A DNA stretch of 64,000 bases. Source: a virus. Its lineage: Duplodnaviria; Heunggongvirae; Uroviricota; Caudoviricetes. The DNA lies in the IMG/VR virus record IMGVR_UViG_2639762884_000001. The stretch is one strand, 5' to 3'. Within the stretch, counting starts at the first letter, position 1. The number at the start of each line of letters is the position of its first letter. The notes below the pieces were generated by a model. It worked only from the letters and a program-made list of their open reading frames with translations. It did no database searches and was not told where the DNA came from. Shown here piece by piece: positions 2,575 through 56,360 of this stretch. A program made the position numbers and the translations under genes.

Positions 2575-2616
2575 CTATCGACTGCCCCGACCGGGGCAGT
2601 CTCACAAGGATGTGAG

Positions 2617-2952
2617 ATGGAAAGACAAACGTTTAATTGGTATCCAGATTACGAATCTGAAAAAAGCGTAAAACCGAATGTAACGGTACTTAATTTTGGT
2701 GATGACTACGAGCAGCGACAGGCTCAAGGTCTTAATCGTATTAAAGAAGAATGGTCGTTAACCTTTACCAGATCATACAACGAAATTAATGCAATCGATG
2801 ACTTCCTGACTGAGCGAGCAGGCGTTGAGTCGTTCTATTGGGTTAATCCAAGAGGAAAACGGATTGTAGTTGTATGTGACAGTCATACGGTCAAGCGATA
2901 TCAGGGGTACTGTGTCTTAACAGCTACATTCAGACAAGTATTTGAGGCTTAA
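2617..2952 (+). CDS. Minor tail protein, lambda gpM-like
   Basis: 111-aa ORF in the gpM position directly after the tape measure; size and synteny match lambda M. Confidence 0.65.
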   Translation: MERQTFNWYPDYESEKSVKPNVTVLNFGDDYEQRQAQGLNRIKEEWSLTFTRSYNEINAIDDFLTERAGVESFYWVNPRGKRIVVVCDSHTVKRYQGYCVLTATFRQVFEA

Positions 2953-3001
2953 GTATCTAGATAAGTAAGTACTAATTTACTATCATTGTGGCGCTGACAG
3001 G

Positions 3002-5115: not shown

Positions 5116-8100
5116 TTGAACATGGAACAGTTCAAGAAGAAAAAGCTACCGCTGTTTATTGCCGGTGCGGGTGGTAAAAAAAGCAGCAAAAGCTCCAGCC
5201 GTACACCGGTTGAAGCCGACGATACCGTAAATTCTCGTGCAATGGCCGCTATCCTCGATCTTCTTGGGGAAGGGGTAATTGGCGGCTTAGTAAATGGCGC
5301 AAGATCTATTTTTATCGACGATCTGCCGATTGTAAATGAAGACGGTTCCTCCAACTTCAGCGGAATCACATGGGATTTTCGCGACGGTTCGCAAGACCAA
5401 ACTCCAATGTCTGGCTTTGATTTCGTTGAAACGCCTAAATCCGTCAATATCCAGTTAAAAAAAACACATTATGTAACGGTTTCAATCGATAACGATGAAG
5501 CTGATCGGGTTCGTGTCATCATGAAGTTTCCTTCTTTGCGAAGCATAGATAAAAAAACTGGTGACACGAACGGTACGACTGTTGAGTACAAGTTCCAGAT
5601 AGCAAATGGCGACTCAACATTTGTAGATGTGGTCGCGGAAGGTGAAAAAAGCGTTGGCATTAAGCTAACAGCAAAGAAGACCGGCGTTTATTACCGTAGC
5701 TACGAGCTGAAGCTGCCTAAGCCTGGACGCGCATACAAGGTTCGTGTAGTCCGTATTACCGATGATAACAGTAGCCAGTATCTCTATAACGATACATGGG
5801 TGGATTCAATCGGGGAAATTGTCGATACACCGATGAACTATCCAAACTCTGTTTTGGTTGGATTGAAGGTAAACTCTGAGCAATTCGGCAGCACCATGCC
5901 ATCTCGCTCTTATCTGGTGCGTGGCCTAAAAATTCGAGTACCTTCAAACTATAACGAGTCCAGTAACACTTACGCTGGGGTATGGGATGGCACTTTTAAG
6001 CTGTTGTCTTCTTCGAACCCCGCGTGGATTCTCTTTGATTTGCTGACCAATGCTCGATATGGCCTTGGTCAGTATGTGTCGGAATCTATGATTGACCTTG
6101 GCCAGTTGTACCAGATTGGTCGATATTGTGACGAAGAGGTCGATGATGGCTTTGGTGGCAAAGAGAAACGCTTTGCAATCAATACGCAGATCACCAGTCG
6201 ACAGGACGCATACCGACTAATTCAGGATATTGCTGGAGCATTCCGCGGCATGGTGTTTTGGGCTGGTGGGATGGTTAACATCATGCAGGATAGCCCATCA
6301 GATCCGGTAATGATGTTTACCAACTCTAACGTCAAAGATGGATTGTTTACCTATAAAGGTTCTGCGCGTAAAGATCGCCCATCCGTTGCGCTCGTAACCT
6401 ACAACAACAAGGAGGACGGTTATAAGCAAAACATCGAGTACGTTGAAGATCAGGACGCAATGCGCCGTTATGGTGAGCGTAAGACAGAAGTCGTAGCATT
6501 TGGCTGTACAAGCCGAGGGCAGGCTCACCGAGTTGGTTTGTGGCTTTTATATACCGCCAGAATGGAGTCGGATGTAATTACATTTACTGCCGGCTTAGAC
6601 GCGTCATTTCTGATGCCTGGTGAAACCGTTCTGATTCAGAACAAATATCGCGCAGGCAAACGTAACTCAGGTCGAATTGTGGCGTTTACCAAAAACAGCG
6701 TCACACTCGATGCGCCTGTTTCGTTAGCCAAAGGCGGCTGCTTTATTCGAATACTGAATCAGGAAGGCAAAATCGTTGAACGCGATGTTCTTGAAACTGG
6801 CGAAAATATAACAAAAGTTACGTTTTCAAAATCCCTGTCTTCGGCTGAAACGCCTGTTTTGAACGGCGTCTGGACTATTACAGAACCAGACCTCGAACCT
6901 ATGCGCGTTCGCATCGTTAACATCGCGCAGGGGGAAACGCCGGGTAGCTTTGACATCACCGCTGTTGAGAACAATCCGTCTAAATATGAGGCGATCGACA
7001 ATGGTGCAACGCTTATCCCGCAAAATACGACGGTATTGGACCCGACTTACTCCAAGCCGTCTAATTTGCAAATCACCGAAGGGACTTATCTCTCAAGCCC
7101 TGGCAACCTGTCAGTAAAACTGACTGCAACATGGGAAGGGAAATCTCCAGAGTATTGGATCAGTTGGCGACGTTCTGATGAAAACAATGTATCGAACTGG
7201 CAATCGGCGCGTGTAACCGAAGAGCAATACGAAATCGTTAATGTTGCGGAGAATGGACGCTACGACTTCCAGCTGTATGCGGTTTCATTCAACGGTAAAA
7301 AAACAGAGATTATCAGTACCGTTTATCAGGTGCTGGGCACAATGACACCGCCAGATGCCCCAACGTCATTAACGGCCGTTGGAGACTATCGTAATGTGAT
7401 ACTGAATTGGGTTAATCCAGATTCGGTAGACCTTGATCACATTAATGTTTACGCATCCCAGACCAACAATCTGGATACGGCGAAACTGATCGCAGAGTCT
7501 GCAAGCACCACCTTTACACATGCTGGTCTTGGGGATAGCGAAACGTGGTATTACTGGGTTCGAGCATCGAACAAGCGAGGTATGTTAAGTCCTCCGAACT
7601 CAAACTTGGGTACAGAGGCGACAACTCGCGATGTACTGTCGTTCCTGACTGGCAAAATTACATCTTCCGAGCTTGGTCAGGCTCTGCTTGAGGACATCAA
7701 CAGCAAAGCCTCTCAAGAAGCAGTTGACGAGTTAAATGAGCATATCAACCAGAGCGTCGAATCTTTGGAGGGGTCGGTAAACGACGTTAAGGAAGATATA
7801 GCTGAATTAGATAAGCAGTTCAGCGATAACCTCGCGGATTTTGAAATAAAATTCAACGAGCGTAGCGATGCTTTGGAGAACGCACAAACCGAGCTTAAAG
7901 GTGAGGTTTCGGCAACGATCGACAAGGTCAATGAAGCGTTTGAAAAAATTGATGCTACTGATGCTGCAATTGTTGAAATCGAAAACACCGTATCTGAACA
8001 CGATAAAGCTCTCGCTAATACAGTCGAGGCAATAAAGGCTGCAAGAGATGAAGCGGCGGCTCTTATTGCTAAGGAAAGCGAGGCTCGTGTTGAAGGCGAT

Positions 8101-29333: not shown

Positions 29334-29557
29334 ATACAACGATAAGATCATTACGGTTAATCGTCGTTCATGTGCACAATGACTGGTCGAAAGGTAGTGA
29401 TCTTACCGTTGTGGTGGATTCGCAGACTGATGCGATAGCTTTCTTGGATGTTAGGGAAATGCGGCCGCAAATCTTCCCTTTCGCGAGCGGTGATCGTCCG
29501 TAGTCCTAATTGGCTGCACCGTATGCCGGAGATTCAGTACCGGCTATCACAACGGCC

Positions 29558-29644
29558 GGAGAGTAGGGAGCATGGTGCTCAAGCGGTCTTGAAAACCGTC
29601 CCATTGCGCAAGCGATGATGGTTCGATTCCATTACTCTCCGCCA
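29558..29644 (+). tRNA. tRNA-Ser (anticodon TGA), type II
   Basis: Acceptor ggagagt/actctcc, anticodon region ggtCTTGAAAAccg closely resembling enterobacterial tRNA-Ser(UGA), long variable arm, T-loop ttcgatt, encoded CCA. Confidence 0.7.
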
Positions 29645-29800
29645 GACACAGCGTTGAGCGGTTTGGCCTTTTAATCAACTCGATTAAGACTCCGCTAACA
29701 TAAACCAGACCGCTCAACGCTGTGATAGACAATTACGGCAGACGTTCTTAACCATAGCTTGCTAACATCCTAGCAACACTTTTTTTTCAGCGCAAAATTC

Positions 29801-29823
29801 AAAGGGGCTTCGGCCCCTTTTTG
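29801..29823. terminator. Bidirectional rho-independent terminator
   Basis: aaa-ggggcttcggcccc-ttttt; A-tract on one side and T-tract on the other, at the 3' end of the minus-strand gene 29830-31050. Confidence 0.6.
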
Positions 29824-29829
29824 GCTGGG

Positions 29830-31050
29830 TTAATTAAAACCGAATGAATTAAGTTCTGCTTTGAATTTATCGACCATTTTTTCAACTTCGTTTACAATTG
29901 CGTGAATCTCTTCGTCTTTTCTCGGATTAGAATTGAGGTCAAAATATGCCTTATATAAGGCATATTTTGACAAGCTTCCTTCAATATTTTCAGAGAAAAT
30001 ATTGGTACGACCATCAGTTAATAAGATATCAGCAGATCGGGAATTTAAATTATATTTATAGTAAATCTTTATTAGTCTGCTTATCTCTTTTTCATTCTTG
30101 ATTACCCTCTGTCTTTTACCAGCAATATTAAGACTCCAGCCTACATAACTAGTCAGATCGGAATTAAACTTACACACTTCCGCATCAGCTTTTTCCATAT
30201 TTAGATTAATATTATTTCTCATGTGTAGCGGTAATTCGTTGAATTTTTGCTGTAAATGCTGTTTGCAGGGATTGTTGTAAGACCACAGAATTGCGAACGT
30301 AGCTCTTTGCATCCGGGTATTCAGATCGATGTTAAAGTTCTCACGATCACGAATCATTTCATCTACATAAAACTCTACAGCTTTTCGGTATTCTTTGTTA
30401 AAGATCTCGGTAACATACATTTCTAAATAATGGACTTTCGAGATTGCCTCATCAAAAAAAAGCTCACTCTCAAAGAAGTTGTATTTATTTAAGAGATTAG
30501 AAAGTCTACTTAAGTCATAGGTTTTATTATTTTCAATATTAAGACCAAAAATGGCAATTAACAGACTTACTTTATGATTAATACTGCTACGTAATTGAGC
30601 TATATAAATTCTCTTTTCATCTTCTGCTGATGACAGTAGATAAAACTCTTTATCTAAATAATTTAAAATTAGAATTATGTGATTTACATATTTAATGTAA
30701 ATAGGTTGTTTTGTTACATAATAATAAATGCTTTTGATGGAATTAATGCTCAATTTCGTATTAAACTCTTTGTCATTCAACAAAGTGTTATTTACGTCCT
30801 CAAGTAATTTATCATGTTGCTCTAGTAATATTCCGTACCATTCTTTAAAAGAGGCTTTTTTCATTTCAAGAAGTGAATCTGCCGTTAATTGTGTTGCCTT
30901 CATTGCAGCTTTTGCACTATTTCTTGCCTCATAAGCAGCCCAAGCAGTAACAAAAGTAGCAAGTGAACCTATAGCCTCTTTGTATTCTTTAGCCACATCC
31001 CAAAAAATAATAGTTATTACACACAATATGAGAATTAATATTAAAGGCAT
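29830..31050 (-). CDS. AT-rich membrane-anchored protein of unknown function (candidate accessory/defence gene)
   Basis: 406 aa; N-terminal TM helix PLILILILCVITIIFW then a helical N/K/Y/I-rich soluble domain; markedly lower GC than flanking DNA; opposite strand. Confidence 0.5.
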   Translation of the reverse strand: MPLILILILCVITIIFWDVAKEYKEAIGSLATFVTAWAAYEARNSAKAAMKATQLTADSLLEMKKASFKEWYGILLEQHDKLLEDVNNTLLNDKEFNTKLSINSIKSIYYYVTKQPIYIKYVNHIILILNYLDKEFYLLSSAEDEKRIYIAQLRSSINHKVSLLIAIFGLNIENNKTYDLSRLSNLLNKYNFFESELFFDEAISKVHYLEMYVTEIFNKEYRKAVEFYVDEMIRDRENFNIDLNTRMQRATFAILWSYNNPCKQHLQQKFNELPLHMRNNINLNMEKADAEVCKFNSDLTSYVGWSLNIAGKRQRVIKNEKEISRLIKIYYKYNLNSRSADILLTDGRTNIFSENIEGSLSKYALYKAYFDLNSNPRKDEEIHAIVNEVEKMVDKFKAELNSFGFN

Positions 31051-31256
31051 GTTATCTATATCGTTAGTTAATTTTGAACATAAATGATACTTAGTCCACC
31101 GCTAAATTTCATCAAATTTGATAATTTTCTTGACGATCATGTCTCAAAATTATTTATACTTGGCATATTTGAGATATATAATAATAGGTAATAACACACC
31201 TATCACATTTAAGCATCAACAAGATAAATTACGGACCCAGACCAGAAAGGAAACTA

Positions 31257-31505
31257 ATGAGAAATATACTTATCTACGGACGAGATAACTGCTCATACTG
31301 CAAACGTGCGGTCGAGCTGGCGAAGAAACTAAAGGGACATGGCTACGGTGATTATGAGTACATCGACATCACCACTGCCGGTATCGATAAGGAAAAACTT
31401 AGCGAAATTGTTGGTAAACCGGTAGAGACTATCCCCCAGGTGCTGATCGATGGCCAGCCGATTGGCGGATACACAGAACTGGCTGCATACGTCAGCACCC
31501 TCTGA
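31257..31505 (+). CDS. Glutaredoxin-like protein (NrdC/NrdH-type)
   Basis: 82 aa with CSYC redox motif near the N-terminus (YGRDNCSYCKRA) and glutaredoxin-like C-terminus (PQVLIDGQPIGGY). Confidence 0.7.
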   Translation: MRNILIYGRDNCSYCKRAVELAKKLKGHGYGDYEYIDITTAGIDKEKLSEIVGKPVETIPQVLIDGQPIGGYTELAAYVSTL

Positions 31506-31509
31506 TTTT

Positions 31510-31533
31510 AACGGCTCACAGGAGCCGTTTTTT
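31510..31533 (+). terminator. Rho-independent terminator
   Basis: acggctc-acag-gagccgt hairpin followed by TTTTTT. Confidence 0.6.
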
Positions 31534-31585
31534 ATTCCCACCAAACTCACACCTGTTTCCATTAAAATTCAAAAAACAACGCCTG

Positions 31586-31618
31586 AATGATTCCATACCT
31601 ACTATGTATGGAATCATT
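31586..31618. promoter_or_regulatory. Perfect 12-bp inverted repeat upstream of the recombinase gene (candidate operator/recombinase site)
   Basis: aatgattccata-N9-tatggaatcatt. Confidence 0.4.
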
Positions 31619-31716
31619 GCTGAAAATGAGTTACTTTTACTCTTGATCCTATAAGAATCTATGCCTAATATACTGTTTACTTATACAGTGCATCGGCGTA
31701 ACTCGGTGATTGTCAT

Positions 31717-32820
31717 ATGAAAAATAGCTTTGACAGAGCACGCGCTGCGGAGAACACCTCAAAAGAGGCGATAGAGTATCTCGAAAGAGCATCTCAAATG
31801 CAGGCCGTTATGATCTCCCAGGTCAGCAATGACATGAGATTCTCGGACGCATTCATGTTATTCACTCGCTTATCTCTGCTGATAACCAGACGTCGGCCAG
31901 AGATCGCTGTTCATTGTATTTTGATACATGTTTTGCCGCACATTGCCGATGTAAAAGTAAGTGACATTAATAGGTTCATGGTGAACCAACTGGTCAACCC
32001 ACTAATACTGGATGGCAAAATTGTTATGGGCCGCCGCGTTTTCTCTCTGATGAAGCAGTTCCTTAGCTGGTGCGCCTTCCAGGGGATGATAGACGTGTCA
32101 CCGTTAAACGATATGTCACTTAACAAAGTTGCCGGTGGCGCAAAGCCCACACCTCGCGAGCGGAAGCTGACCGACGCAGAGGTATGGGTGTTCTGGAATA
32201 TATGGGACTACTTCAATGTGTGTGCTGGTACAAAATGGGCGGCCAGGCTGTGTCTTGTATCAGCAAGACGACCTGACGAAGTACTGCGGGCTAAAAAAAG
32301 TGAGTTCAATCTTAAGCGTGGGGTTTGGAATCAAGGCAAGAGGAACAAATCTGCCCGTGAGCATTCTCTGCCTTTAAGCTCATTAATGCGCACTTGTATT
32401 GAAGAGTTGTTCGAATATGGTAAAGACAGCCAGTGGCTCGTGCCTTCGAATAAAAAAATCGGGAAAGACCTTCCTATGTCTAAAGTGGCAATAGCCCAGG
32501 CATTACGTCGTATTCTGGAACGACCAGAACTGATGGAGCTTGAGCCATTTACACCCCGAGATTTGCGCCGTACTGCGCGTAGTTACTTCCCAGCATTAGG
32601 CATAAGCCAGGAGGTATCACGTAAAATCATGAACCACAGTCTTGAGGGGATAGATCGGGTCTACGACCGGCACGATTATATGGACGAGATGCGAGACGCC
32701 TTAGAAAGTTTCTCGACGTACATCGCATCAATCGTAGAGCAACCGGATTTAGACGAAATTGACCACAAATTTAAGGGAGATCGTCTATCAACAGAGCTTA
32801 TTCGTGTAAATTTTTCATAG
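31717..32820 (+). CDS. Tyrosine recombinase (phage integrase family)
   Basis: C-terminal catalytic region: LVSARRPDEV (Arg box), PRDLRRT, NHSLEGIDRVYDRHDY with terminal Tyr; 367 aa. Confidence 0.65.
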   Translation: MKNSFDRARAAENTSKEAIEYLERASQMQAVMISQVSNDMRFSDAFMLFTRLSLLITRRRPEIAVHCILIHVLPHIADVKVSDINRFMVNQLVNPLILDGKIVMGRRVFSLMKQFLSWCAFQGMIDVSPLNDMSLNKVAGGAKPTPRERKLTDAEVWVFWNIWDYFNVCAGTKWAARLCLVSARRPDEVLRAKKSEFNLKRGVWNQGKRNKSAREHSLPLSSLMRTCIEELFEYGKDSQWLVPSNKKIGKDLPMSKVAIAQALRRILERPELMELEPFTPRDLRRTARSYFPALGISQEVSRKIMNHSLEGIDRVYDRHDYMDEMRDALESFSTYIASIVEQPDLDEIDHKFKGDRLSTELIRVNFS

Positions 32821-33201
32821 AGACTTTATGGCCTCAACAACCTTTTGTGATGCGCCTTTCTCTTTACCGAATCGCTCGTTATATGCAGCAAGAACCTGTT
32901 TTTCGTCCTCGTTAAGAGGAGCAGTGCCTTCTTTGTATAAAAATGCTGCGAGTTCGGGTTGGCGTTCTTCCAGCACCATCATCATAAGACGACTTGGCTC
33001 AATACCCAGTGCCAGCGCCAGCGGACGAACCTTATCGATAGGCAAAGGAATTTTGCCGCTTTTAATTAAAGAAAGGTTGTTGGCGTTTTTATACCCAATT
33101 GTTTTGGCTATCTGGGCCTGGCTCATAGGTGAGGATTCAATCAACCCTGCGATAAAAGCAGCGTAGCGACTTTCTATAAATTCAATCTTGTTATCAGACA
33201 T
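32815..33201 (-). CDS. XRE-family helix-turn-helix transcriptional regulator (repressor-like)
   Basis: HTH MSQAQIAKTIGYKNANNLSLIKSGK near N-terminus; 128 aa; convergent with the recombinase gene. Confidence 0.6.
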   Translation of the reverse strand: MSDNKIEFIESRYAAFIAGLIESSPMSQAQIAKTIGYKNANNLSLIKSGKIPLPIDKVRPLALALGIEPSRLMMMVLEERQPELAAFLYKEGTAPLNEDEKQVLAAYNERFGKEKGASQKVVEAIKSL

Positions 33202-33231
33202 GGTTACAACCTTTGCGCGTTCAATTCTCTC

Positions 33232-33245
33232 TGGTAAGTGCTTAC
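33232..33245. promoter_or_regulatory. Palindrome ggtaagtgcttacc in the promoter region of the XRE regulator (copy of the dispersed motif core)
   Basis: Located about 30 bp upstream of the regulator start codon on the minus strand. Confidence 0.4.
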
Positions 33246-33452
33246 CGATATTACATCAAAGGTTAGGGTTGTAAAGCTATTATCATTTTTTTCGATAGGC
33301 ACTTAAAAGACCGGTTAAAGGCCATTGCACGGAGAAAAATTAGCCCAAAACAGGTAAGAAAATCAACTTGCATATGATATGTATGTATTCAGTATTGATA
33401 CAAATTTTAGTAGTATTCCTTACCATAGTATAAGTTAGAATGGATTGATTGA

Positions 33453-33665
33453 ATGAACACCACTATTTCCAGCCTAATCGCTCTTGAGATCGGACACGTA
33501 CAGAAATTAGCTGATGAGTGTGTAGCTGACATCCTCACCGATCTACCGAATGAGCAGATTCAGGTTGGTGTGAATGACACAACTGGATTTATATTCGAAC
33601 TTAACAACAAACGCTTCACGCTTCTCAATACCGGCTCCGGGTCTTTAGCCGTCAGAATCTGTTAA
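33453..33665 (+). CDS. Hypothetical small protein
   Basis: 70-aa ORF. Confidence 0.3.
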   Translation: MNTTISSLIALEIGHVQKLADECVADILTDLPNEQIQVGVNDTTGFIFELNNKRFTLLNTGSGSLAVRIC

Positions 33666-33763
33666 CCCCTCTTCTCCCTGCGCGAATGGCTTAGTTCCCT
33701 GTTCGCGCAGTGCTACATTAAACACACTAGTAAATAATTTGTTTTCATAACAAAGGATTAGCC

Positions 33764-35872
33764 ATGTCTAAAAAACGTTCCATCAAAGAGGTTCAGGACT
33801 TCCGTGACAGTGTAAAACGAGTAGTCGCTCTCCTTTCAGGTAAAAACATCCCTGTTGCAGAACGAGGGGACGACGCTTATGTACGCTATAACGATGATGG
33901 AGAGCCAATTCTCGTAAACATCCCATCAATCCCGGATAACGCAACACCGGCATTGATGAATGCTGTGCGCGGATTTCTCGATCATGAGGTTGCTCACATT
34001 TTGTTTACCGATATTCGTGTGTCCAACAAAATGAGAGAAAAAGGACGCGTTCCTTCCTGGTCGCTATGGAATGCCTTAGAAGACGTGTTCATCGAGCGAA
34101 AAATGGGTCAGGTCTTTAACGGAACAAGACGTAATCTGATGGCAACTCAGCGCCTTATAATCGAAAAAGTCTTTAAACCAAAGGCTTCAGAGGCTATTGC
34201 TTATTGTGGCAAAGATCAGCGCGCGCTTTTTCTAAACTTCTTTCTCTGTCCGGTTGTAAGAGCCTGGGATGGCCAAGCACCGTTCGTAGATTTCATGGAT
34301 GAATATTGGCCTGTCATTGAGAAACCAATTTCATTATTAAAAGAACATGGTATCGATGTGGCCGTGCGTAACATGTCTTGCACCGAGGATTGTGTAAAGG
34401 TGGCTGCGACCATAGCTAAGATCCTCAAAGACACTGAAAGTGAAAGCAAAGGTAAGGAGTCAGCTCCGGGAAAAACTTCCGATCCTTCAGACGCTGACCA
34501 GACGGATGCCTCTGGAGAAAACAATGAAGACAACGAAGATCATGAGACACCCTCAGCGTTAGATAATCACAAATCTATCAAATCAGAATCACACAGTAAG
34601 CACAAACATGATAATAACGACAGTGATGATTCAGATAATTCTGAATCATCAGAAACAATATTCGATGATACAGAAAATGATAAAGAGGTATCAGATTCTG
34701 ATGCTTCTGATAACGCGGTGTCAGAATCATTTACCGCTGACCACGAAAAAAGAAAAACGACAGAAGACGGCTCTTCAGATATTCCAACTCCGTCAAAAAT
34801 GAGTCTGGAAGAGGCTTTAGAGGAGCTGGATAGCATAGAAGATGAAGTCGGAGGCATGACAGAAGATGCTCTATCCGAAACGATTAAAAGCGAGTTAACA
34901 GAAAGCTCGAAAAGCGAATACAGGCCATACAATCGCTCATACGACTTCATCGGCTCGATTGATCAGGCAGAAGCCCATATCAAACGGCTTATTAAAACAT
35001 TCTCCGATATTGATTTAGGAGGATATCCAATCAGCCGCTATCGCATCGTTCCTGAAGGCAACCAGCTCTTCGACAAATATATTGAAAAGCATCTTTCGTC
35101 AGGTGTTTCGTCGACGCTGGCAAAAGACCTGGAGCGAGCAATAGCAAGCAGAAACAGAGTTCAGTTTATACCGGGCCAGCGTCGGGGGCGCATTCATGGT
35201 TCTAGTATCTACAGATTAGCAATGAATGATGATCGCGTGTTTCGTAAAAAAGAAGAATCTAAAGCCGTTAACGCCTGTGTTCAACAAGTGATTGATTTAT
35301 CAGGTTCAATGAGTGGTATAACGATACAATTGGCTCTTGCAAGTGCATATACCATCGCCGATGCCCTTGATCGAATAAATGTTCCCAACATTATCACCGG
35401 CTTCACTACATTTGGTAGTCATATGGCGGCAGGAGAACTTAAGGCTGTCAAGTATGAGTTCTCTCGCTTTGAATCTTTAATGCTACCTATCATCAAAAAT
35501 TGGAATGAAAAGGTAAATTCTCGCGAAGTTCGCTCACGTATGGGGTGCGTAGGCTACACATTCCCACTTCTTAATAACGTGGATGGTGAAAGCATAGCCA
35601 GCCTTGCATCGTTATTTTCCGGTCGCATGGAGGACAGGAAGATCATGCTTGTTCTGAGTGATGGCGCGCCGTGGGCTGTTGGGAGAGGTTTTGACGCTCA
35701 TTTGCGTTCGGTTGCGAAGCAAATTGAAACGCAGACTGACATTGATTTGATGGCAATTGGCATCATGACTGACGCACCGGAGAGATTTTACTCAAATCAT
35801 GCCCTGGTAACGAGCGTTGATAGTCTTGGTTCATCTGTAGTTACTGAACTATCTCGTATCATTTTAAAGTGA
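33764..35872 (+). CDS. von Willebrand factor A (VWA) domain protein, CobT-like
   Basis: MIDAS motif VIDLSGSMSG in the C-terminal half; long acidic Asp/Ser/Glu-rich low-complexity linker (about aa 240-350); paired with a CobS-like AAA+ gene. Confidence 0.6.
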   Translation: MSKKRSIKEVQDFRDSVKRVVALLSGKNIPVAERGDDAYVRYNDDGEPILVNIPSIPDNATPALMNAVRGFLDHEVAHILFTDIRVSNKMREKGRVPSWSLWNALEDVFIERKMGQVFNGTRRNLMATQRLIIEKVFKPKASEAIAYCGKDQRALFLNFFLCPVVRAWDGQAPFVDFMDEYWPVIEKPISLLKEHGIDVAVRNMSCTEDCVKVAATIAKILKDTESESKGKESAPGKTSDPSDADQTDASGENNEDNEDHETPSALDNHKSIKSESHSKHKHDNNDSDDSDNSESSETIFDDTENDKEVSDSDASDNAVSESFTADHEKRKTTEDGSSDIPTPSKMSLEEALEELDSIEDEVGGMTEDALSETIKSELTESSKSEYRPYNRSYDFIGSIDQAEAHIKRLIKTFSDIDLGGYPISRYRIVPEGNQLFDKYIEKHLSSGVSSTLAKDLERAIASRNRVQFIPGQRRGRIHGSSIYRLAMNDDRVFRKKEESKAVNACVQQVIDLSGSMSGITIQLALASAYTIADALDRINVPNIITGFTTFGSHMAAGELKAVKYEFSRFESLMLPIIKNWNEKVNSREVRSRMGCVGYTFPLLNNVDGESIASLASLFSGRMEDRKIMLVLSDGAPWAVGRGFDAHLRSVAKQIETQTDIDLMAIGIMTDAPERFYSNHALVTSVDSLGSSVVTELSRIILK

Positions 35873-35967
35873 ACAAAACAGCCTTAACGATAAGTAACCA
35901 CTTACGATAGATAATGATATATTTATATAAGAAGTTGAACGCTCATTAGAAAACAAAGGAAAAACGC

Positions 35968-37203
35968 ATGACTACTACTGCACTGCAAAATGAAAAAAAT
36001 CCTTCTGATTACCTTGTTTGCAAGTGGTGCGGAAAATCATTTCACTATTTTAAGTCCCATGTAGCCAATGGTAATTGCGAGGGCATTCCTGAGTCAGTAA
36101 AAGATGCCGATCCTGACACCGTACTGAAAATGTACACAACACAGTTTCCAGATGAGCCAACGCTATCGAAAAAGGCACTTGATGCAATTCAAGCTAAACG
36201 TGCCGAGCAAAAAAGCGAAATGGCCAAATCATCTGGCGTGACCAGTAGCCCAGGCTACACAGGCACAGTTGAGTACAAGACAGATCTGGTCGCAGCTCAC
36301 GAACTGCTAAATGTAACGGTGAAAGAACTCGGAACAAAACGTGGGACGCCGCTCATGGTTAGCGTCAACGTCAATACGCCGTTTCCAGAGTTCGTTCCAG
36401 AAGTGAAGAAGGGATACGTATATGGCGACTTCGAACTGATCAAAGACATTTTCATGATGCTTGAACTTGGCATACCTGGCTATTTGTGGGGTCATGCAGG
36501 AACAGGCAAATCTTCATTGCCTACACAACTATGTGCTTTGCTCAATCGTCCGTTAATCCGTGCCCAACATACAGCATCAATGGAAGAGGCTCATGTTACG
36601 GGACAAATTCTGGCGCGTGATGGCTCTACGTATTTCGAGCCTGGCTTGCTTGCGCTCGCAATGAAGCATGGCTGGGTTTACCTCGCGGATGAATACGACT
36701 TTGCGTTTCCACAGATTCTTGGCGTGTATCAGCCAGTGCTGGAAGGTGAAGCGTTGGTCATCAAAGAGGCGACTCCAGAATGGCGTCGCATTACTCCGCA
36801 TGAACGGTTTGCTTTCATTGGCACTGGCAACACGAACGGATCTGGTGATGAAACCGGCTTGTACCAGGGTACAAACATCCAGAACGCCGCGAACTTTTCG
36901 CGTTTTGGCATCGTTTCGAATGTGAAATACATGAGCAAAGAGGCAGAGATCAACATGTTGATAAATGCCGGTATCGTGGATGAATACGCAGAAAAGATGG
37001 TTAAGTTTGCCGGTATCGTTCGCGATGGATACGAAGAACACCTTATCAGTCAGCCAATTGGCCCTCGTGAACTTTTGTTGTCGGCCAAGATTGGAATGAT
37101 GCGAGGCGACTTTGTGACAGGTATTGAGCGTTCTTTCATTAACAAACTCCCTTCAGCTTCTGCACAAGCGGCTCGTGAAGTTGTTCAAAAAATATTTGGT
37201 TGA
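35968..37203 (+). CDS. AAA+ ATPase, CobS/MoxR-like
   Basis: Walker A GHAGTGKSS, Walker B VYLADEYDF; N-terminal Cys/His cluster CKWCGKSFHYFKSH...C. Confidence 0.6.
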   Translation: MTTTALQNEKNPSDYLVCKWCGKSFHYFKSHVANGNCEGIPESVKDADPDTVLKMYTTQFPDEPTLSKKALDAIQAKRAEQKSEMAKSSGVTSSPGYTGTVEYKTDLVAAHELLNVTVKELGTKRGTPLMVSVNVNTPFPEFVPEVKKGYVYGDFELIKDIFMMLELGIPGYLWGHAGTGKSSLPTQLCALLNRPLIRAQHTASMEEAHVTGQILARDGSTYFEPGLLALAMKHGWVYLADEYDFAFPQILGVYQPVLEGEALVIKEATPEWRRITPHERFAFIGTGNTNGSGDETGLYQGTNIQNAANFSRFGIVSNVKYMSKEAEINMLINAGIVDEYAEKMVKFAGIVRDGYEEHLISQPIGPRELLLSAKIGMMRGDFVTGIERSFINKLPSASAQAAREVVQKIFG

Positions 37204-37409
37204 TCGTGCGTAAAGGATGTTTCGGCTCTCTTATCGCTGCTTCTGAAACTGGTAAGGCTTGTCTGGTGTGTCCAGACAAGCCCGATTGTCACCAGTCAGC
37301 AAAAGAAGTTGCGATTTCGATGCATGGGAAGTTCGTAGGCTTCCCCAATGACAAAATCAAAAAAACCAGAAAGGTAAAAACACATGAAGGCACTGATGGT
37401 TCGAACTGA
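37200..37409 (+). CDS. Small cysteine-rich (zinc-ribbon-like) protein
   Basis: 69 aa with CLVCPDKPDC. Confidence 0.3.
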   Translation: MIVRKGCFGSLIAASETGKACLVCPDKPDCHQSAKEVAISMHGKFVGFPNDKIKKTRKVKTHEGTDGSN

Positions 37410-40400
37410 CTTCTCACTTGGGGAGTCGGCTCTAAAAGCAGAAAACGCGGTGAAGATTGCCAGAGAAGCTGGCTACACCGCTGTAATTTCAGCAGATAGC
37501 ATGAATATTGCGAGCGTTATTCCACTACAACGTGCCGCTGGTGACGACATGGCGGTTATTTGTGGTGTGAAACTAAACATTGTTGATGATCCCACATACG
37601 AGCACCGGGCTAAACTTGCTAAAGAATCTATGAGATGTATGGAATCATTAGAGCGGGGACGTAACTACTCGTTTACCGCTCTAATTAAAAATGAGCAAGG
37701 ATATCGCGACATCTGCGAACTAATGACGGTGGCCAACACACGAGAACAGTTCTACTTTGTACCGCGTCTCTCGCTCGAACAGTTGGTTTCTACATATGCC
37801 AAAGGCAACATCATCCTGCTCACTTCCGACATCGGTAGCGTGTTCCAACGCAACGATTTTGCAAAAATCATAAGCTCACTGATTACAGCGGGCGGGAAAG
37901 ACAACTTCTATAGCGTGGTTTATCCGCACCCTACCCCATTCTACGACCAGATTAACGTCCGAGCGATGAAAGTAGCCAGCGCACTGAAAATAGAGCCAGT
38001 AGCGTTCTATCCCGCTTATTACGAATCGATCGACGATGCAGACATTAAAGACATTGCGCACATGGTTACGAACAACATAAAAATCGACCAGCCGCATCGT
38101 CTGCGTATCCCCCACCAGCGAGATAACGCCGTCAATGGTCGCCGCCATCTCCTTGAGGCGCTTAAAGCCTTCTCCGTTCGCATGGATGTGCCGGTAACAG
38201 CTGCAATGGCCTCAACAACGCAGGACTCCATTATCGAAGCCTGTACATGGCGCTGGCATGAATTGCCACCAGCACTGCCCAAGATGGCAGACGACGAGCC
38301 TGCAACGCTGATGAAACTGGCTGTTGCAGGGCTGCGCAAACGTCTTACCACAAAAGAGTTTGGCTACACACCACCGGCTTCTGAGAACAGGGTTTATGTT
38401 GAGCGACTTAAGTACGAAATGGACACGCTTACTCGCCTGGGATTTTGTGGTTACTTCCTGATGGTACGCGATCTGATGAATCACAGCCGTGAAACTGGCA
38501 TTCCTGTCGGGCCTGGTCGTGGTTCCTCCGCTGGCTCTTTGGTGGCATGGTGCATAGGCATAACCAACGTCGACCCTATCCGTCACGGTCTTCTGTTTGA
38601 ACGTTTCATCAACCCTGAGCGTCTCGACTTGCCAGATGCGGATTTGGACTTCAGCCAGGCACGTCGCCATGAGGTGATCGAGTATCTGAATGAACGATAC
38701 GGCGAAGATTACGTTGCGGGTATTCCGAACTTCACATATCTGGGCGCAGCCTCTGCACTACGTGACACCGCTCGTATTTATGGTGTGGAGTCCGCAGATA
38801 TGGCGGTATCAAAAGAACTGAAGAACGTCGAGGATGATAGCCTTCCATTGGAAGAGCTGCGCGAACAACTGGCAAGTCTCGACAAATACGCGACAAAATA
38901 TCCTGATGCATTCAATGCAGCCTGCAAGTTACAAAGCCTTATGCGTGGCTTTGGTAGACATGCGGCAGGGATGATCGTAGCAGGTGTTCCTCTGACAGAA
39001 CGTACACCGGTTGAGCGCCGTGGTGACGCGCGTTGTATCGCATTTGACAAGCGTTACTGCGAGGCTATGGGCCTAATTAAGCTGGACGTACTTGGCCTAG
39101 CAACTCTCGATTTGCTTGATAGTGCAAAACGCTACATTAAAGAGAACACAGGTGAAGATATCAATCTTGATGCCATTTCTCTTGAAGATCGCAAGGTGCT
39201 GGATGGTTTTGCTGCTGGGTACACTCAAGGTGTTTTCCAGCTTGAATCAGGCCCAATGCGCAAGCTGCTTAAAGATTTAGGTGGTGGAATTGAGCCAATG
39301 AGCTTTAAAACGGTCGTCGCTACGACTGCGCTCTTCCGGCCGGGGCCAATTCAGTCAGGCATGTTGGATGACTATGTTTCTGTCGCCAAAGGCTTTATGA
39401 CGCCGGAATCATTACACCCCGTTCTTGATGAACTTACCGCGGAAACAAATGGCGTGATTCTCTATCAGGAACAGACGATGAACGCGACTCGATTGCTTGC
39501 CGGCTTCACAATGGCTGAAGCTGACGCTGTGCGTTCCGCAATCGGTAAGAAGAACATGGAAAAAATGAAGAGCATGGGCGAGAAGTTCATCGTTCAGGCT
39601 CAAGCTGGCTGGATAGACGTTGAGCTGGAAGATGGCACTACACAGCGCATTCACCGTGCGGAACATTTTAAATGCGAAGACGGAACTCTGAAAACTGTCG
39701 AAGAGGCACTTGAGCACGGCGCAAAACTACCTATAAACGCAGTACGCGTTACAGCGTCACATCCAGGGCTATCAGAGATGAAAGCGAAGGAGATCTGGAC
39801 CGCATTCGAAAAAAATGGTGCCTACCAGTTCAACAAATCACACTCTGTTGCTTACTCCTTGATCAGTTATCAATCTATGTGGTTGAAAACTCATTATCCC
39901 GCAGAGTTTTTCGCTGCTGCTCTCACTATTCTTGGCGAAGATAAACACCAGGGGCTGGTTAAAGATGCGCTGACCTATGGTATTCGCGTATTGCCACCAG
40001 ACGTTAACGTGTCATCCAACCGAATCGAGATCCGCACGCTTGAAGATGGCAGCCAGGTGCTGTATGCGCCCTTCTCTGCTGTGAAGGGGTGTTCTGAGAA
40101 TGGCTGCCAAGCCATCATGAGAGCGCGAGAAAAAGTTGGCGGCAAATTCGAGTCACTGGCGCAATTCGAAGAAGCTGTCGAGAAACGTGCCTGTAATAGT
40201 CGAGTGCGCGAATCGCTGCAAAAAGTAGGGGCGTTTGCATCCATCGAGCCAGGTAGTCTGCCAGCAACTGATCCAGAGCGCCTACGCGACCAGGCTGAAT
40301 TGATGGGAAACCTTGTCATAGACGCAGTTAAAGCCTCACGTCCGTTTGAGATGAACCCCAAACGTTCGGCTGAGATTAACGTGCTCATGACACGGATGGC

Positions 40401-56287: not shown

Positions 56288-56360
56288 TTTCATTGATAGG
56301 TAAGTGCTTATCTATTAACATGGGCCACTATATTTAGTGGCCCTCTTTATTTGGTGATAC

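What the first reader, a model, noticed from the sequence alone, without database searches (positions are those of the whole stretch)
31586..33245. Recombinase and XRE-regulator module with flanking inverted repeats
A tyrosine recombinase (31717-32820) converges on an XRE-family HTH regulator (32815-33201). Upstream of the recombinase is a perfect 12-bp inverted repeat (aatgattccata-N9-tatggaatcatt, 31586-31618); the regulator promoter carries the dispersed-motif core and nested palindromes (ttacaacc ... ggttgtaa). In a plasmid-borne prophage the recombinase may resolve multimers (Cre/lox-like) rather than integrate; alternatively the nearby tRNAs could provide an attachment site.
Basis: partly seen in the sequence, partly recalled or inferred. 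Interest (0 to 1): 0.55.

Follow-up and report, generated by a model that had tools for sequence, protein, structure and literature searches.

The report
Plasmid recombinase with its own palindromic site
A recombinase gene on an SSU5-type phage-plasmid sits next to a 33-bp palindrome that follows it through about 930 plasmids and never appears on a chromosome, so it is most likely a Cre/lox-like system that keeps the plasmid as single copies, not a phage integrase.

Summary
The window is an E. coli SSU5-like phage-plasmid. It has a 367-aa tyrosine recombinase (31717-32820), a convergent HTH regulator (32815-33201), and a palindrome at 31586-31618, better described as 13-bp arms around a 7-bp AT-rich spacer.

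- **The palindrome is the recombinase's own site.** All 77 family members retrieved by protein similarity carry one 44-118 bp upstream (one displaced by an insertion, one degenerate).
- **Arms co-vary with the protein.** They change symmetrically as the protein diverges (TGATTCCATAC to TGACTCCAGAC), while spacers drift and even flip.
- **The pair travels without the regulator.** It occurs alone on Pantoea, Rahnella and Erwinia megaplasmids.
- **The protein looks like a simplified integrase.** It derives from P4-type integrases, lacks their arm-binding domain and keeps its catalytic residues.
- **It is plasmid-only.** All 255 E. coli copies are on plasmids, and no Xer site is detectable.

Best reading: a Cre/loxP-like multimer-resolution module (about 0.6), untested experimentally.

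New here: a conserved LexA box on the int promoter, three strongly conserved single half-sites up to 6 kb away (unexplained), and a cargo hotspot ending at the palindrome. The tRNA-attachment idea and the "dispersed motif" in the regulator promoter are not supported.

The parts
31586..31598 (+). Left arm of the core site, AATGATTCCATAC
   Evidence: Perfect complement of the right arm. The inner 12 nt were invariant in the pattern-retrieved loci by construction. The independent test is that 64 of 77 protein-retrieved relatives carry the identical 12-nt arm.
31599..31605 (.). 7-bp AT-rich asymmetric spacer CTACTAT, the presumed crossover region
   Evidence: At least 12 spacer variants among relatives with identical arms. 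Reverse-complement pairs exist in otherwise identical contexts, e.g. L053 against L002.
31606..31618 (-). Right arm of the core site, GTATGGAATCATT
   Evidence: Arm changes in diverged relatives are always mirrored in both arms.
31564..31576 (.). Semi-conserved A/T-rich tract (a.atTt.aaaaaa), 10-23 bp left of the palindrome; possible accessory or bending element
   Evidence: It is the only conserved feature among at least 30 unrelated left flanks. Backbone homology with relatives resumes at 31568-31586.
31643..31671 (+). Inferred sigma-70 promoter of int: TTGATC (31643-31648), 17 nt, TAATAT (31666-31671)
   Evidence: My reading of the sequence. Conserved in all lineages with int at 82% identity or more. 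It matches 8 of 12 consensus positions, below the scan threshold, so one search does not list it.
31671..31690 (.). LexA (SOS) box TACTGTTTACTTATACAGTG overlapping the -10/+1 of the int promoter
   Evidence: It is the only exact TACTGT-N8-ACAGT in the window. CTGT/ACAG is kept, with a few lineages degenerate at one position, at a fixed offset of +52 to +55 from the palindrome, while the central 8 nt vary across lineages. It is absent in group B and class 2.
31717..32820 (+). Tyrosine recombinase (Int), 367 aa, P4-integrase lineage without an arm-binding domain
   Evidence: R185, R284 and Y316 are invariant; K211, R281 and H307 are at least 90% conserved in 90 sequences.
32815..33201 (-). HTH (XRE-like) regulator, 128 aa, convergent with int; probable prophage repressor. 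An SSU5 backbone gene, not part of the recombination module.
   Evidence: The Cyrano orthologue CYRAN_45 is listed as putative repressor and is expressed in the lysogen (PMC9928086). It is absent next to int on megaplasmids.
33233..33275 (-). Regulator promoter (TTTACA-16-TAATAT, 33275..33248) followed by the conserved palindrome GGTAAGTGCTTACC (33233-33246), a likely operator
27872..27886 (+). Single half-site a, ATGATTCCATACATC, on the start codon of a small membrane-protein gene (27872-28024)
   Evidence: Conserved at the nucleotide level across lineages while neighbouring codons diverge.
28884..28898 (+). Single half-site b, ATGATTCCATACATC, intergenic, about 190 bp upstream of the tRNA cluster
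37634..37648 (-). Single half-site c, ATGATTCCATACATC, inside the dnaE-like gene (codons C-M-E-S-L), pointing back toward the palindrome
   Evidence: In 23 distinct sequences, 4 of 5 third-codon positions inside the motif are invariant, against 95% variable outside it.
29827..31585 (.). Variable cargo region, here a 406-aa ORF of unknown function plus glutaredoxin. It is bounded on the left by the terminator of a conserved structured element and on the right by the palindrome.

Best explanation
Int and the 33-bp palindrome form a self-contained, Cre/loxP-like site-specific recombination module that serves plasmid maintenance.

- **Binding.** Two Int monomers bind the two 13-bp arms.
- **Reaction.** Two such sites on a plasmid dimer synapse. 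The conserved tyrosine (Y316) cuts and exchanges strands at the edges of the 7-bp spacer, turning the dimer back into monomers so that the low-copy phage-plasmid segregates faithfully.
- **Origin.** The enzyme descends from P4-type integrases but has lost the N-terminal arm-binding domain. It therefore works on a simple site without arm-type sites.
- **Regulation.** In the E. coli/Klebsiella/Yersinia lineage the gene is read from a promoter 25 bp downstream of the site that carries a LexA box. Expression would be low in the lysogen and would rise with DNA damage.
- **The neighbouring regulator.** The HTH gene is a separate backbone gene, the probable prophage repressor, that merely converges on int.

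Shown here: the anatomy of the site, the strict co-occurrence and co-variation of site and enzyme, conservation of the catalytic residues, the plasmid-only distribution, and conservation of the LexA box.

Inferred: binding, the cleavage positions, resolution of multimers, and SOS control.
For: 1. **Co-occurrence.** All 105 pattern-retrieved loci that hold int have the palindrome 44-101 bp upstream of it. In a retrieval by protein similarity alone, 77 of 77 family members (47-100% identity) have a 12+7+12 palindrome upstream. One is displaced 2 kb by an insertion and one is degenerate. Two P4-like outgroups have none.
2. **Co-variation.** Relatives at 44-50% identity carry GTGACTCCAGAC-N7-GTCTGGAGTCAC, with two arm positions changed in both arms. 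The outermost arm position also changes symmetrically: ATG/CAT, GTG/CAC, TTG/CAA.
3. **Independence from the regulator and from phage genes.** Lone int plus site sit among metabolic genes on Rahnella (723 kb), Pantoea (508 kb) and Erwinia (106 kb) plasmids and on a Chimaeribacter 169-kb contig.
4. **Geometry.** 13-bp arms with a 7-bp AT-rich asymmetric spacer match loxP/FRT/dif-type core sites (general knowledge). Spacers vary, and flip, between close relatives. That is tolerable for recombination between identical sister copies but not for a fixed attB.
5. **Enzyme.** R185, R284 and Y316 are invariant and K211, R281 and H307 at least 90% conserved. The roughly 65-aa Arm-DNA-bind_3 domain of the nearest relatives is missing. 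In the AlphaFold model (pLDDT 87) the N-terminus is helical.
6. **Distribution.** 252 of 5,426 complete E. coli genomes carry it: 255 places, all on plasmids, none on chromosomes. The family is in 933 PLSDB plasmids, 900 of them non-mobilizable. No cluster has a contig over 0.9 Mb.
7. **No alternative system.** Int is the only site-specific recombinase annotated on pECOH89. No dif/cer-like XerCD site scores better than in shuffled sequence.
Against: - No experiment exists, and the held literature says nothing about this Int or its site.
- By sequence and fold the protein belongs with integrases. Lambda Int is the top fold match at E=2e-6; Cre reaches only E of about 0.04.
- Simple integrases without an arm-binding domain do exist and do integrate, e.g. 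mycobacteriophage Brujita Int, which is among the fold hits (its biology is from my own knowledge).
- A LexA-repressed promoter is unexpected for a housekeeping resolvase.
- One plasmid carries an IS between the site and int and evidently persists.
- Chromosomal absence was tested at nucleotide level only in E. coli.
- The three conserved single half-sites have no role in a plain Cre/lox scheme.
Confidence: 0.6

Rival explanations
1. Int is a true integrase and the palindrome is the core of an attP. The phage-plasmid, or its ancestors, can insert into a chromosomal or plasmid attB, possibly when SOS induces int.
For: The nearest relatives outside the family are P4-type integrases (26-34% identity). 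The best fold matches are lambda Int, Tn1549 Int and IntI. SOS-induced int expression would fit a life-cycle switch. From memory, integration of Y. pestis pMT1/pFra into the chromosome has been reported, but I recall it being attributed to IS elements.
Against: None of the 255 E. coli copies is chromosomal, and no part of 31560-32820 matches any E. coli chromosome. All 16 contigs read for a Citrobacter orthologue, including three of 0.2-0.9 Mb, share the same neighbours around int. A scan of 185,579 species genomes for the two-armed site found it only next to int. The spacer differs between close relatives. There is no arm-binding domain and no recognisable excisionase nearby. The tRNA genes lie 2 kb away, and the repeat search of 31400-33500 and the chromosome search turned up no attachment-site-like match.
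Confidence: 0.08
2. The palindrome and the single half-sites are operators, and Int acts mainly as a DNA-binding regulator. This would resemble the recombinase-like repressors of SPbeta/phi3T-type phages: it would repress its own promoter and modulate neighbouring replication and tRNA genes, with little or no recombination.
For: Three single half-sites identical to the arms are kept under nucleotide-level selection at fixed backbone positions. They occur nowhere else in the 111.7-kb pECOH89. In the 57-61% identity lineages the site abuts the int promoter, with a -10-like TATGCT 13 nt downstream, so that the -35 would fall in the right arm (my reading). There is a weak fold hit to the phi3T SroF recombinase-like repressor (rank 36).
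Against: The full catalytic set, including the nucleophilic tyrosine, is conserved across 90 diverse sequences. That is not expected if catalysis were dispensable. Class-2 elements and megaplasmids have the palindrome but no single half-sites within 6-8 kb on either side. In the main lineage the site lies 25 bp upstream of the -35, not over the core promoter.
Confidence: 0.1
3. The site is an integron-like or module-exchange platform. Int captures or swaps cargo genes at the palindrome, which would explain the hypervariable region immediately to its left.
For: Backbone homology with 12 of 13 relatives resumes at 31568-31586, that is, at the palindrome or up to 18 bp to its left; the thirteenth (L032) aligned only within int. 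At least 30 unrelated left contexts carry toxin-antitoxin, colicin, Ail/Lom, AraC-type and unknown genes. Resistance-gene insertions in SSU5-type elements map to the PhoH/ligase neighbourhood (PMC9600943). The LexA control is shared with integron integrases (general knowledge).
Against: The cargo is not flanked by a second full or half site. Its left boundary is the terminator of a conserved structured element. Half-sites a and b are not homology breakpoints. The homology break often lies 18-24 bp left of the arm, not in the spacer. There are no attC-like repeats. Mosaic breakpoints also occur elsewhere: in L014 and L057 the site-to-int interval has diverged while the int protein is 98% identical.
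Confidence: 0.1

Closest known systems
Cre/loxP of phage-plasmid P1
   Same: A plasmid prophage with a single tyrosine recombinase gene next to a single site. The site has two 13-bp inverted arms around a short asymmetric AT-rich spacer. No arm-type sites are apparent. The proposed role is resolution of plasmid multimers.
   Different: There is no specific relationship beyond the superfamily. The PDB sequence search found nothing, and the Cre fold match reaches only E of about 0.04, against 2e-6 for lambda Int. The spacer is 7 bp rather than 8. The promoter carries a LexA box. Conserved single half-sites lie kilobases away. The site is about 43 kb from the terminase genes in pECOH89, so a role in cyclising incoming DNA is less likely than for P1.
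P4-type (CP4-57/IntS-like) heterobivalent integrases
   Same: They are the closest sequence relatives outside the family, at 26-34% identity, with the same core-binding (Phage_int_M) and catalytic domains and the same ...DLRRT... and ...YDRHDY motifs.
   Different: The N-terminal Arm-DNA-bind_3 domain is absent. No tRNA-linked attachment and no chromosomal copies were found. The site is a symmetric palindrome. The first residue of the HxLR motif is Arg instead of His.
Plasmid and transposon tyrosine resolvases with adjacent sites (F ResD/rfsF, Tn4430 TnpI/IRS)
   Same: The recombinase gene lies beside its own site on a plasmid. In Tn4430 extra copies of the arm motif act as accessory sites (from my knowledge of the literature).
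   Different: Here the extra arm copies are single, lie 2.7-6 kb away on both sides, and all point toward the core, instead of forming a compact accessory array within about 100 bp. No homology to these enzymes was tested.
Integron integrase IntI / attI
   Same: A tyrosine recombinase whose promoter is LexA-controlled (general knowledge), with variable cargo next to its site. IntI is among the fold matches.
   Different: No attC-type sites flank the cargo, and no integron signature was seen in the family searches. The site is a plain double-stranded palindrome.

Membership tests
Tyrosine recombinase superfamily | Catalytic domain with the R-K-H/R-R-H/W-Y residues | tested here: met
   PF00589 at 2.9e-10. 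R185, R284 and Y316 are invariant; K211, R281 (in place of the first His) and H307 are at least 90% conserved in 90 sequences. The fold matches lambda Int, Xer and Cre.
P4/lambda-type heterobivalent phage integrases | N-terminal arm-binding domain (Arm-DNA-bind_3 / DUF4102) | tested here: not met
   No Pfam hit. The alignment shows the roughly 65 N-terminal residues of P4-like relatives are missing. Residues 1-57 are helical in the model.
P4/lambda-type heterobivalent phage integrases | Integrated copies in host chromosomes with attL/attR, typically at a tRNA 3' end | tested here: not met
   None of 255 places in 5,426 complete E. coli genomes is chromosomal. No contig over 0.9 Mb occurs among 120 clusters. 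This was tested at nucleotide level only for E. coli.
Cre/loxP-type simple recombination systems | A single site of two roughly 13-bp inverted arms around a 6-8-bp asymmetric spacer, adjacent to the recombinase gene | tested here: met
   13+7+13 at 31586-31618, 98 bp upstream of int. Conserved in 77 of 77 relatives.
Cre/loxP-type simple recombination systems | Homology to Cre | tested here: not met
   No PDB sequence hit at E of 1 or less. The Cre fold match is E=0.04-0.2, well behind lambda Int, Tn1549 Int, IntI and Xer.
Cre/loxP-type simple recombination systems | Recombination between two sites without accessory factors; resolution of plasmid dimers | not testable with these tools
   This needs in vivo deletion or inversion assays and plasmid-stability assays.
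XerCD-dependent plasmid resolution (cer/psi/dif-like sites) | An 11-bp XerC arm, a 6-8-bp spacer and an 11-bp XerD arm | tested here: not met
   The best matches in the window and in pECOH89 have 5-6 mismatches out of 22, the same as in shuffled sequence.
Integrons | Cargo cassettes bounded by attC sites next to attI/intI | tested here: not met
   No further copies of the palindrome or its arms flank the cargo. The left cargo boundary is a terminator.
Recombinase-like phage repressors (SPbeta MrpR / phi3T SroF type) | Recombinase fold that has lost catalytic residues and binds dispersed sites | tested here: not met
   The catalytic residues are conserved. The extra sites number only three and cluster within 10 kb. 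The fold hit is weak.
LexA (SOS) regulon | A CTGT-N8-ACAG box at a promoter, conserved across lineages | tested here: met
   TACTGTTTACTTATACAGTG at 31671-31690. The half-sites are kept (a few lineages degenerate at one position) and the centre varies in all lineages with int at 82% identity or more. LexA binding itself was not tested.

The most novel reading that the evidence does not exclude
Int may have a second job besides recombination. Monomers would bind three single half-sites (ATGATTCCATACATC) that are under strong nucleotide-level selection: on the start codon of a small membrane-protein gene, upstream of the tRNA cluster, and antisense inside dnaE. All three point toward the core site and together bracket the roughly 10-kb tRNA/cargo/int/repressor island. 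An SOS-induced recombinase would then double as a local regulator or architectural protein. It could control replication or tRNA genes, or build a long-range topological filter that biases recombination toward resolution. SOS-driven int transcription running into the convergent repressor gene may also help induction.
Probability: 0.25. Interest if true: 0.7.

Novelty: new member of a known kind. Interest (0 to 1): 0.45.

Why it matters
- **Scale.** SSU5-type phage-plasmids are among the commonest plasmids of Enterobacteriaceae. The family is in 933 PLSDB plasmids, including 63 Yersinia records (among them the 101-kb Y. pestis KIM10+ plasmid), Salmonella 107-kb plasmids and carriers of resistance genes.
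- **Annotation.** Their single recombinase is uniformly annotated as an 'integrase'.
- **What is gained.** Defining its cognate site and showing that it is plasmid-restricted re-labels the gene as a probable maintenance function. It also explains one fixed edge of the main cargo and resistance hotspot.
- **SOS link.** The LexA box ties the module to the DNA-damage response.
- **Possible tools.** There are two naturally diverged enzyme/site pairs (TGATTCCATAC and TGACTCCAGAC arms). These are candidates for new orthogonal recombinase tools.
- **Open question.** The single half-sites are a concrete, testable puzzle.

Tried and rejected
- **GGTTGTAA/TTACAACC as a dispersed motif or operator.** It is not enriched and the arm is not conserved.
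- **A genome-wide asymmetric operator like P1 C1.** The half-site occurs only 5 times in the whole 111.7-kb pECOH89, all within 9.5 kb of int.
- **Inversion between half-sites a and c.** They share a 20-bp inverted identity in this window. In other lineages the sequences following the arm differ, and gene order is never inverted.
- **Half-sites a and b as mosaic breakpoints.** The backbone alignments run straight through them.
- **Half-sites as promoters.** I found no consistent -35/-10 geometry (my reading).
- **An RNA-level role for the palindrome.** It lies between the grx terminator and the int promoter, and Rfam finds only tRNAs in 27000-38500.
- **A host Xer site.** None was found.
- **A second site flanking the cargo.** None was found.
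- **Records with two matches as possible dimers or duplicated sites.** One is an ISKox3 insertion between site and int. The other showed nothing unusual.
- **PDB sequence search with Int.** No hits.
- **Literature.** Searches for the Int function and for the site sequences found nothing relevant.
- **Spacer flips as proof of recombinase action.** I did not accept this. Loop inversion by template switching within a perfect hairpin is an equally good explanation (general knowledge).
Full report
**What is there**

The window is an E. coli SSU5-like phage-plasmid. Region 31200-33700 is 98-99% identical to phage Cyrano (the pLF82 plasmid) and to pECOH89-type plasmids, and it matches 741 PLSDB records.

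The gene order is: DNA ligase, small membrane-protein genes, four tRNAs, a 406-aa ORF on the opposite strand, glutaredoxin, the palindrome, int, an HTH regulator on the opposite strand, a 70-aa ORF, CobT-like, CobS-like, dnaE-like.

- **int (31717-32820).** It is a tyrosine recombinase (PF00589 2.9e-10; PHROG integrase 4.8e-47).
- **The regulator (32815-33201, minus).** It overlaps the end of int by 6 nt. It is an HTH regulator by PHROG 8 (1.3e-11) and by RefSeq naming; Pfam support is weak.
- **The repeat at 31586-31618.** It has 13-bp perfect arms (AATGATTCCATAC) around a 7-bp spacer (CTACTAT). The window holds only one other perfect inverted repeat of 13 bp or more with a short spacer. Simulated sequences give 0.02 per window.

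**The palindrome belongs to Int**

- **Pattern retrieval.** An exact search for ATGATTCCATAC-N7-GTATGGAATCAT returned 7 loci from 185,579 species genomes and 101 viral contigs. In all 105 loci that hold int, the site lies 44-101 bp upstream of it, even where the protein is only 57% identical.
- **Protein retrieval.** That test is biased by the pattern, so I also retrieved relatives by protein similarity only. All 77 family members (47-100% identity) have a 12+7+12 palindrome upstream. One is pushed 2 kb away by an insertion and one is degenerate. Two P4-like outgroups at 31% identity have none.
- **Arm co-variation.** In relatives at 44-50% identity (Xenorhabdus, Providencia, Erwinia, Rahnella, Pantoea) the arms read GTGACTCCAGAC, with two positions changed in both arms. 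The outermost arm position also varies symmetrically: ATG/CAT, GTG/CAC, TTG/CAA.
- **Independence from the regulator.** On Rahnella (723 kb), Pantoea (508 kb) and Erwinia (106 kb) plasmids and on a Chimaeribacter 169-kb contig, int and its palindrome sit alone among metabolic genes. There is no HTH neighbour and there are no phage genes.

The unit is therefore int plus site. The regulator is a separate SSU5 backbone gene.

**What kind of enzyme**

- **A tight, plasmid-sized family.** Members are 44-100% identical, all from Enterobacterales, and mostly on contigs of 100-120 kb.
- **Nearest relatives.** These are P4-type integrases at 26-34% identity, which carry the Arm-DNA-bind_3 domain. This family lacks those roughly 65 N-terminal residues.
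- **Model.** In the AlphaFold model (pLDDT 87) residues 1-57 are helical.
- **Catalytic residues.** R185, R284 and Y316 are invariant. K211, H307 and R281 (in place of the usual first His) are at least 90% conserved in 90 sequences.
- **Fold neighbours.** The best are lambda Int (E=2e-6), Tn1549 Int, IntI and the Xer proteins. Cre is much weaker.

So the protein groups with integrases by descent, but it has the domain make-up of a simple recombinase.

**Where it lives**

- Of 5,426 complete E. coli genomes, 252 carry it. There are 255 places, all on plasmids and none on a chromosome.
- A protein-level search finds the family on 933 PLSDB plasmids, 900 of them non-mobilizable.
- No cluster has a contig longer than 0.9 Mb.
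- All 16 contigs read for a Citrobacter orthologue share the same neighbours around int.
- pECOH89 has no other annotated site-specific recombinase.
- Neither pECOH89 nor the window has a dif/cer-like Xer site better than shuffled sequence.

**Spacer behaviour**

At least 12 spacers occur with identical arms, and they track int lineages.

Four reverse-complement pairs exist: CTACTAT/ATAGTAG, CTATTAA/TTAATAG, TCTATAG/CTATAGA, and in class 2 TTAATAG/CTATTAA. In one case (L053 against L002) the two flanks are the same.

So the orientation of the asymmetric spacer relative to int is not fixed. That fits a site with no orientation-dependent accessory sequences, used between identical sister copies. 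It does not fit a fixed attP/attB pair. The flips could arise by template switching in the hairpin, so they do not prove recombinase action.

**Regulation**

- **Main lineage (int at 82% identity or more).** The site is followed by a conserved TTGATC-17-TAATAT (my reading; below the scan threshold). A LexA box, TACTGTTTACTTATACAGTG, lies at 31671-31690. Its CTGT/ACAG halves are kept at a fixed offset (a few lineages degenerate at one position) while the centre varies.
- **Other LexA boxes.** This is the only exact box in the window. pECOH89 has one other strong box, in front of an S24 peptidase gene.
- **Other lineages.** Those at 57-61% identity, and class 2, have no LexA box. In the 57-61% group the promoter would overlap the right arm.
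- **Published context.** Cyrano is induced by ciprofloxacin. In the lysogen its regulator orthologue is expressed, and int is not among the expressed genes listed (PMC9928086).
- **The regulator's own promoter.** It is TTTACA-16-TAATAT, followed by a conserved palindrome GGTAAGTGCTTACC.

**Unexpected extras**

- **Three single half-sites.** The arm sequence plus ATC (ATGATTCCATACATC) occurs three more times, at 27872 (+), 28884 (+) and 37634-37648 (-). It occurs nowhere else in the window or in the whole 111.7-kb pECOH89.
- **They are conserved.** The same three positions hold the motif in diverged lineages.
- **Selection at nucleotide level.** Inside dnaE, 4 of 5 third-codon positions within the motif are invariant in 23 distinct sequences, while 95% of third positions outside it vary.
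- **What they are not.** They are absent from class-2 elements and are not homology breakpoints. I cannot explain them. Int monomer binding is the simplest guess.

**Cargo hotspot**

- Alignments with 13 relatives show the backbone resuming at 31568-31586 in 12 of them. The left edge of the variable segment is the terminator of a conserved 182-nt structured element at 29645-29826.
- At least 30 unrelated sequences abut the site. They share only an A/T-rich tract 11-23 bp to its left.
- The cargo includes toxin-antitoxin, colicin, Ail/Lom, AraC-type and unknown genes.
- No second site flanks the cargo, so cassette-type capture is not supported.
- Exchange by one crossover at the site plus one homologous crossover in the conserved element is possible but untested.

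**Verdict**

The most likely function is Cre/loxP-like resolution of plasmid multimers by a P4-lineage recombinase that has lost its arm-binding domain (confidence about 0.6).

- Chromosomal integration (about 0.08) is disfavoured by the distribution.
- A purely regulatory role (about 0.1) is disfavoured by the conserved catalytic residues.
- An integron-like capture platform (about 0.1) is disfavoured by the anatomy.

I found nothing in the held literature on this Int's function or on its site.

It is a new member of a known kind, of moderate interest, with one real puzzle: the single half-sites.

Noticed in passing
window 27872-27886 (+), 28884-28898 (+), 37634-37648 (-): Three single copies of the Int arm plus ATC (ATGATTCCATACATC). 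All point toward the palindrome. They are conserved at homologous positions in diverged lineages, including wobble positions inside dnaE and on the start codon of a small membrane-protein gene. They are absent elsewhere in the 111.7-kb pECOH89 and absent from class-2 relatives. Function unknown.
   Followed up: yes
window 31671-31690: A LexA box over the int promoter, conserved in the lineages with int at 82% identity or more. pECOH89 has one other strong box (TACTGTATATGCATACAGTA) just upstream of an S24 peptidase gene (L113, about 33900).
   Followed up: partly
window 29645-29826 (+): A conserved 182-nt non-coding element after the tRNA array. It has a 20-bp stem with compensatory changes between lineages and ends in an intrinsic terminator (RNA fold z=-6.5). 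It is better conserved (80-94%) than the surrounding backbone (72-76%), has no Rfam match, and marks the left edge of the cargo hotspot. It may be a small RNA.
   Followed up: partly
window 29938-29971: A perfect 34-bp palindrome (GTCAAAATATGCCTTAT|ATAAGGCATATTTTGAC) inside the 406-aa cargo ORF (29830-31050, minus; phrog_18168, no Pfam or NCBIfam hit). It is the only other perfect long inverted repeat in the window.
   Followed up: no
window 33233-33246; also 56299-56312, 9883, 14104, 42874: A conserved palindrome, GGTAAGTGCTTACC, just downstream of the regulator's promoter. There is a 1-mismatch copy at 56299 and 2-mismatch copies elsewhere: 5 matches against 1.3 expected. These may be operators of the HTH repressor.
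   Followed up: partly
window 32815-33057: int and the regulator converge with overlapping stop codons. The only terminator-like hairpin after int (33041-33057, + strand) lies inside the regulator gene. SOS-induced int transcripts would therefore be antisense to about 240 nt of the repressor mRNA.
   Followed up: no
L002 vs L053; L008/L055; L186 vs L188; L119 vs L123: The 7-bp spacer of the site is found in both orientations relative to int (four reverse-complement pairs), once with identical flanks on both sides.
   Followed up: partly
L204 (NZ_CP061531.1) 6752-7972; L173 about 1000-3000: Mobile-element insertions lie between the palindrome and int. One is an ISKox3 in an E. coli plasmid, cutting at the LexA box. 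The other is a roughly 2-kb insertion in a Klebsiella-type contig.
   Followed up: no
L121 12481-14802 (Xenorhabdus plasmid): The CobS-like AAA_5 gene is 773 aa instead of 411 and carries a LAGLIDADG_3 domain. This suggests an intein or homing-endonuclease insertion.
   Followed up: no
window 29087-29644 and 28385-28487: The tRNA cluster is Asn, Tyr, Thr, Ser. Cyrano lacks the Tyr gene. There is a weak tRNA-like Rfam hit at 28385-28487 (E=0.048).
   Followed up: no
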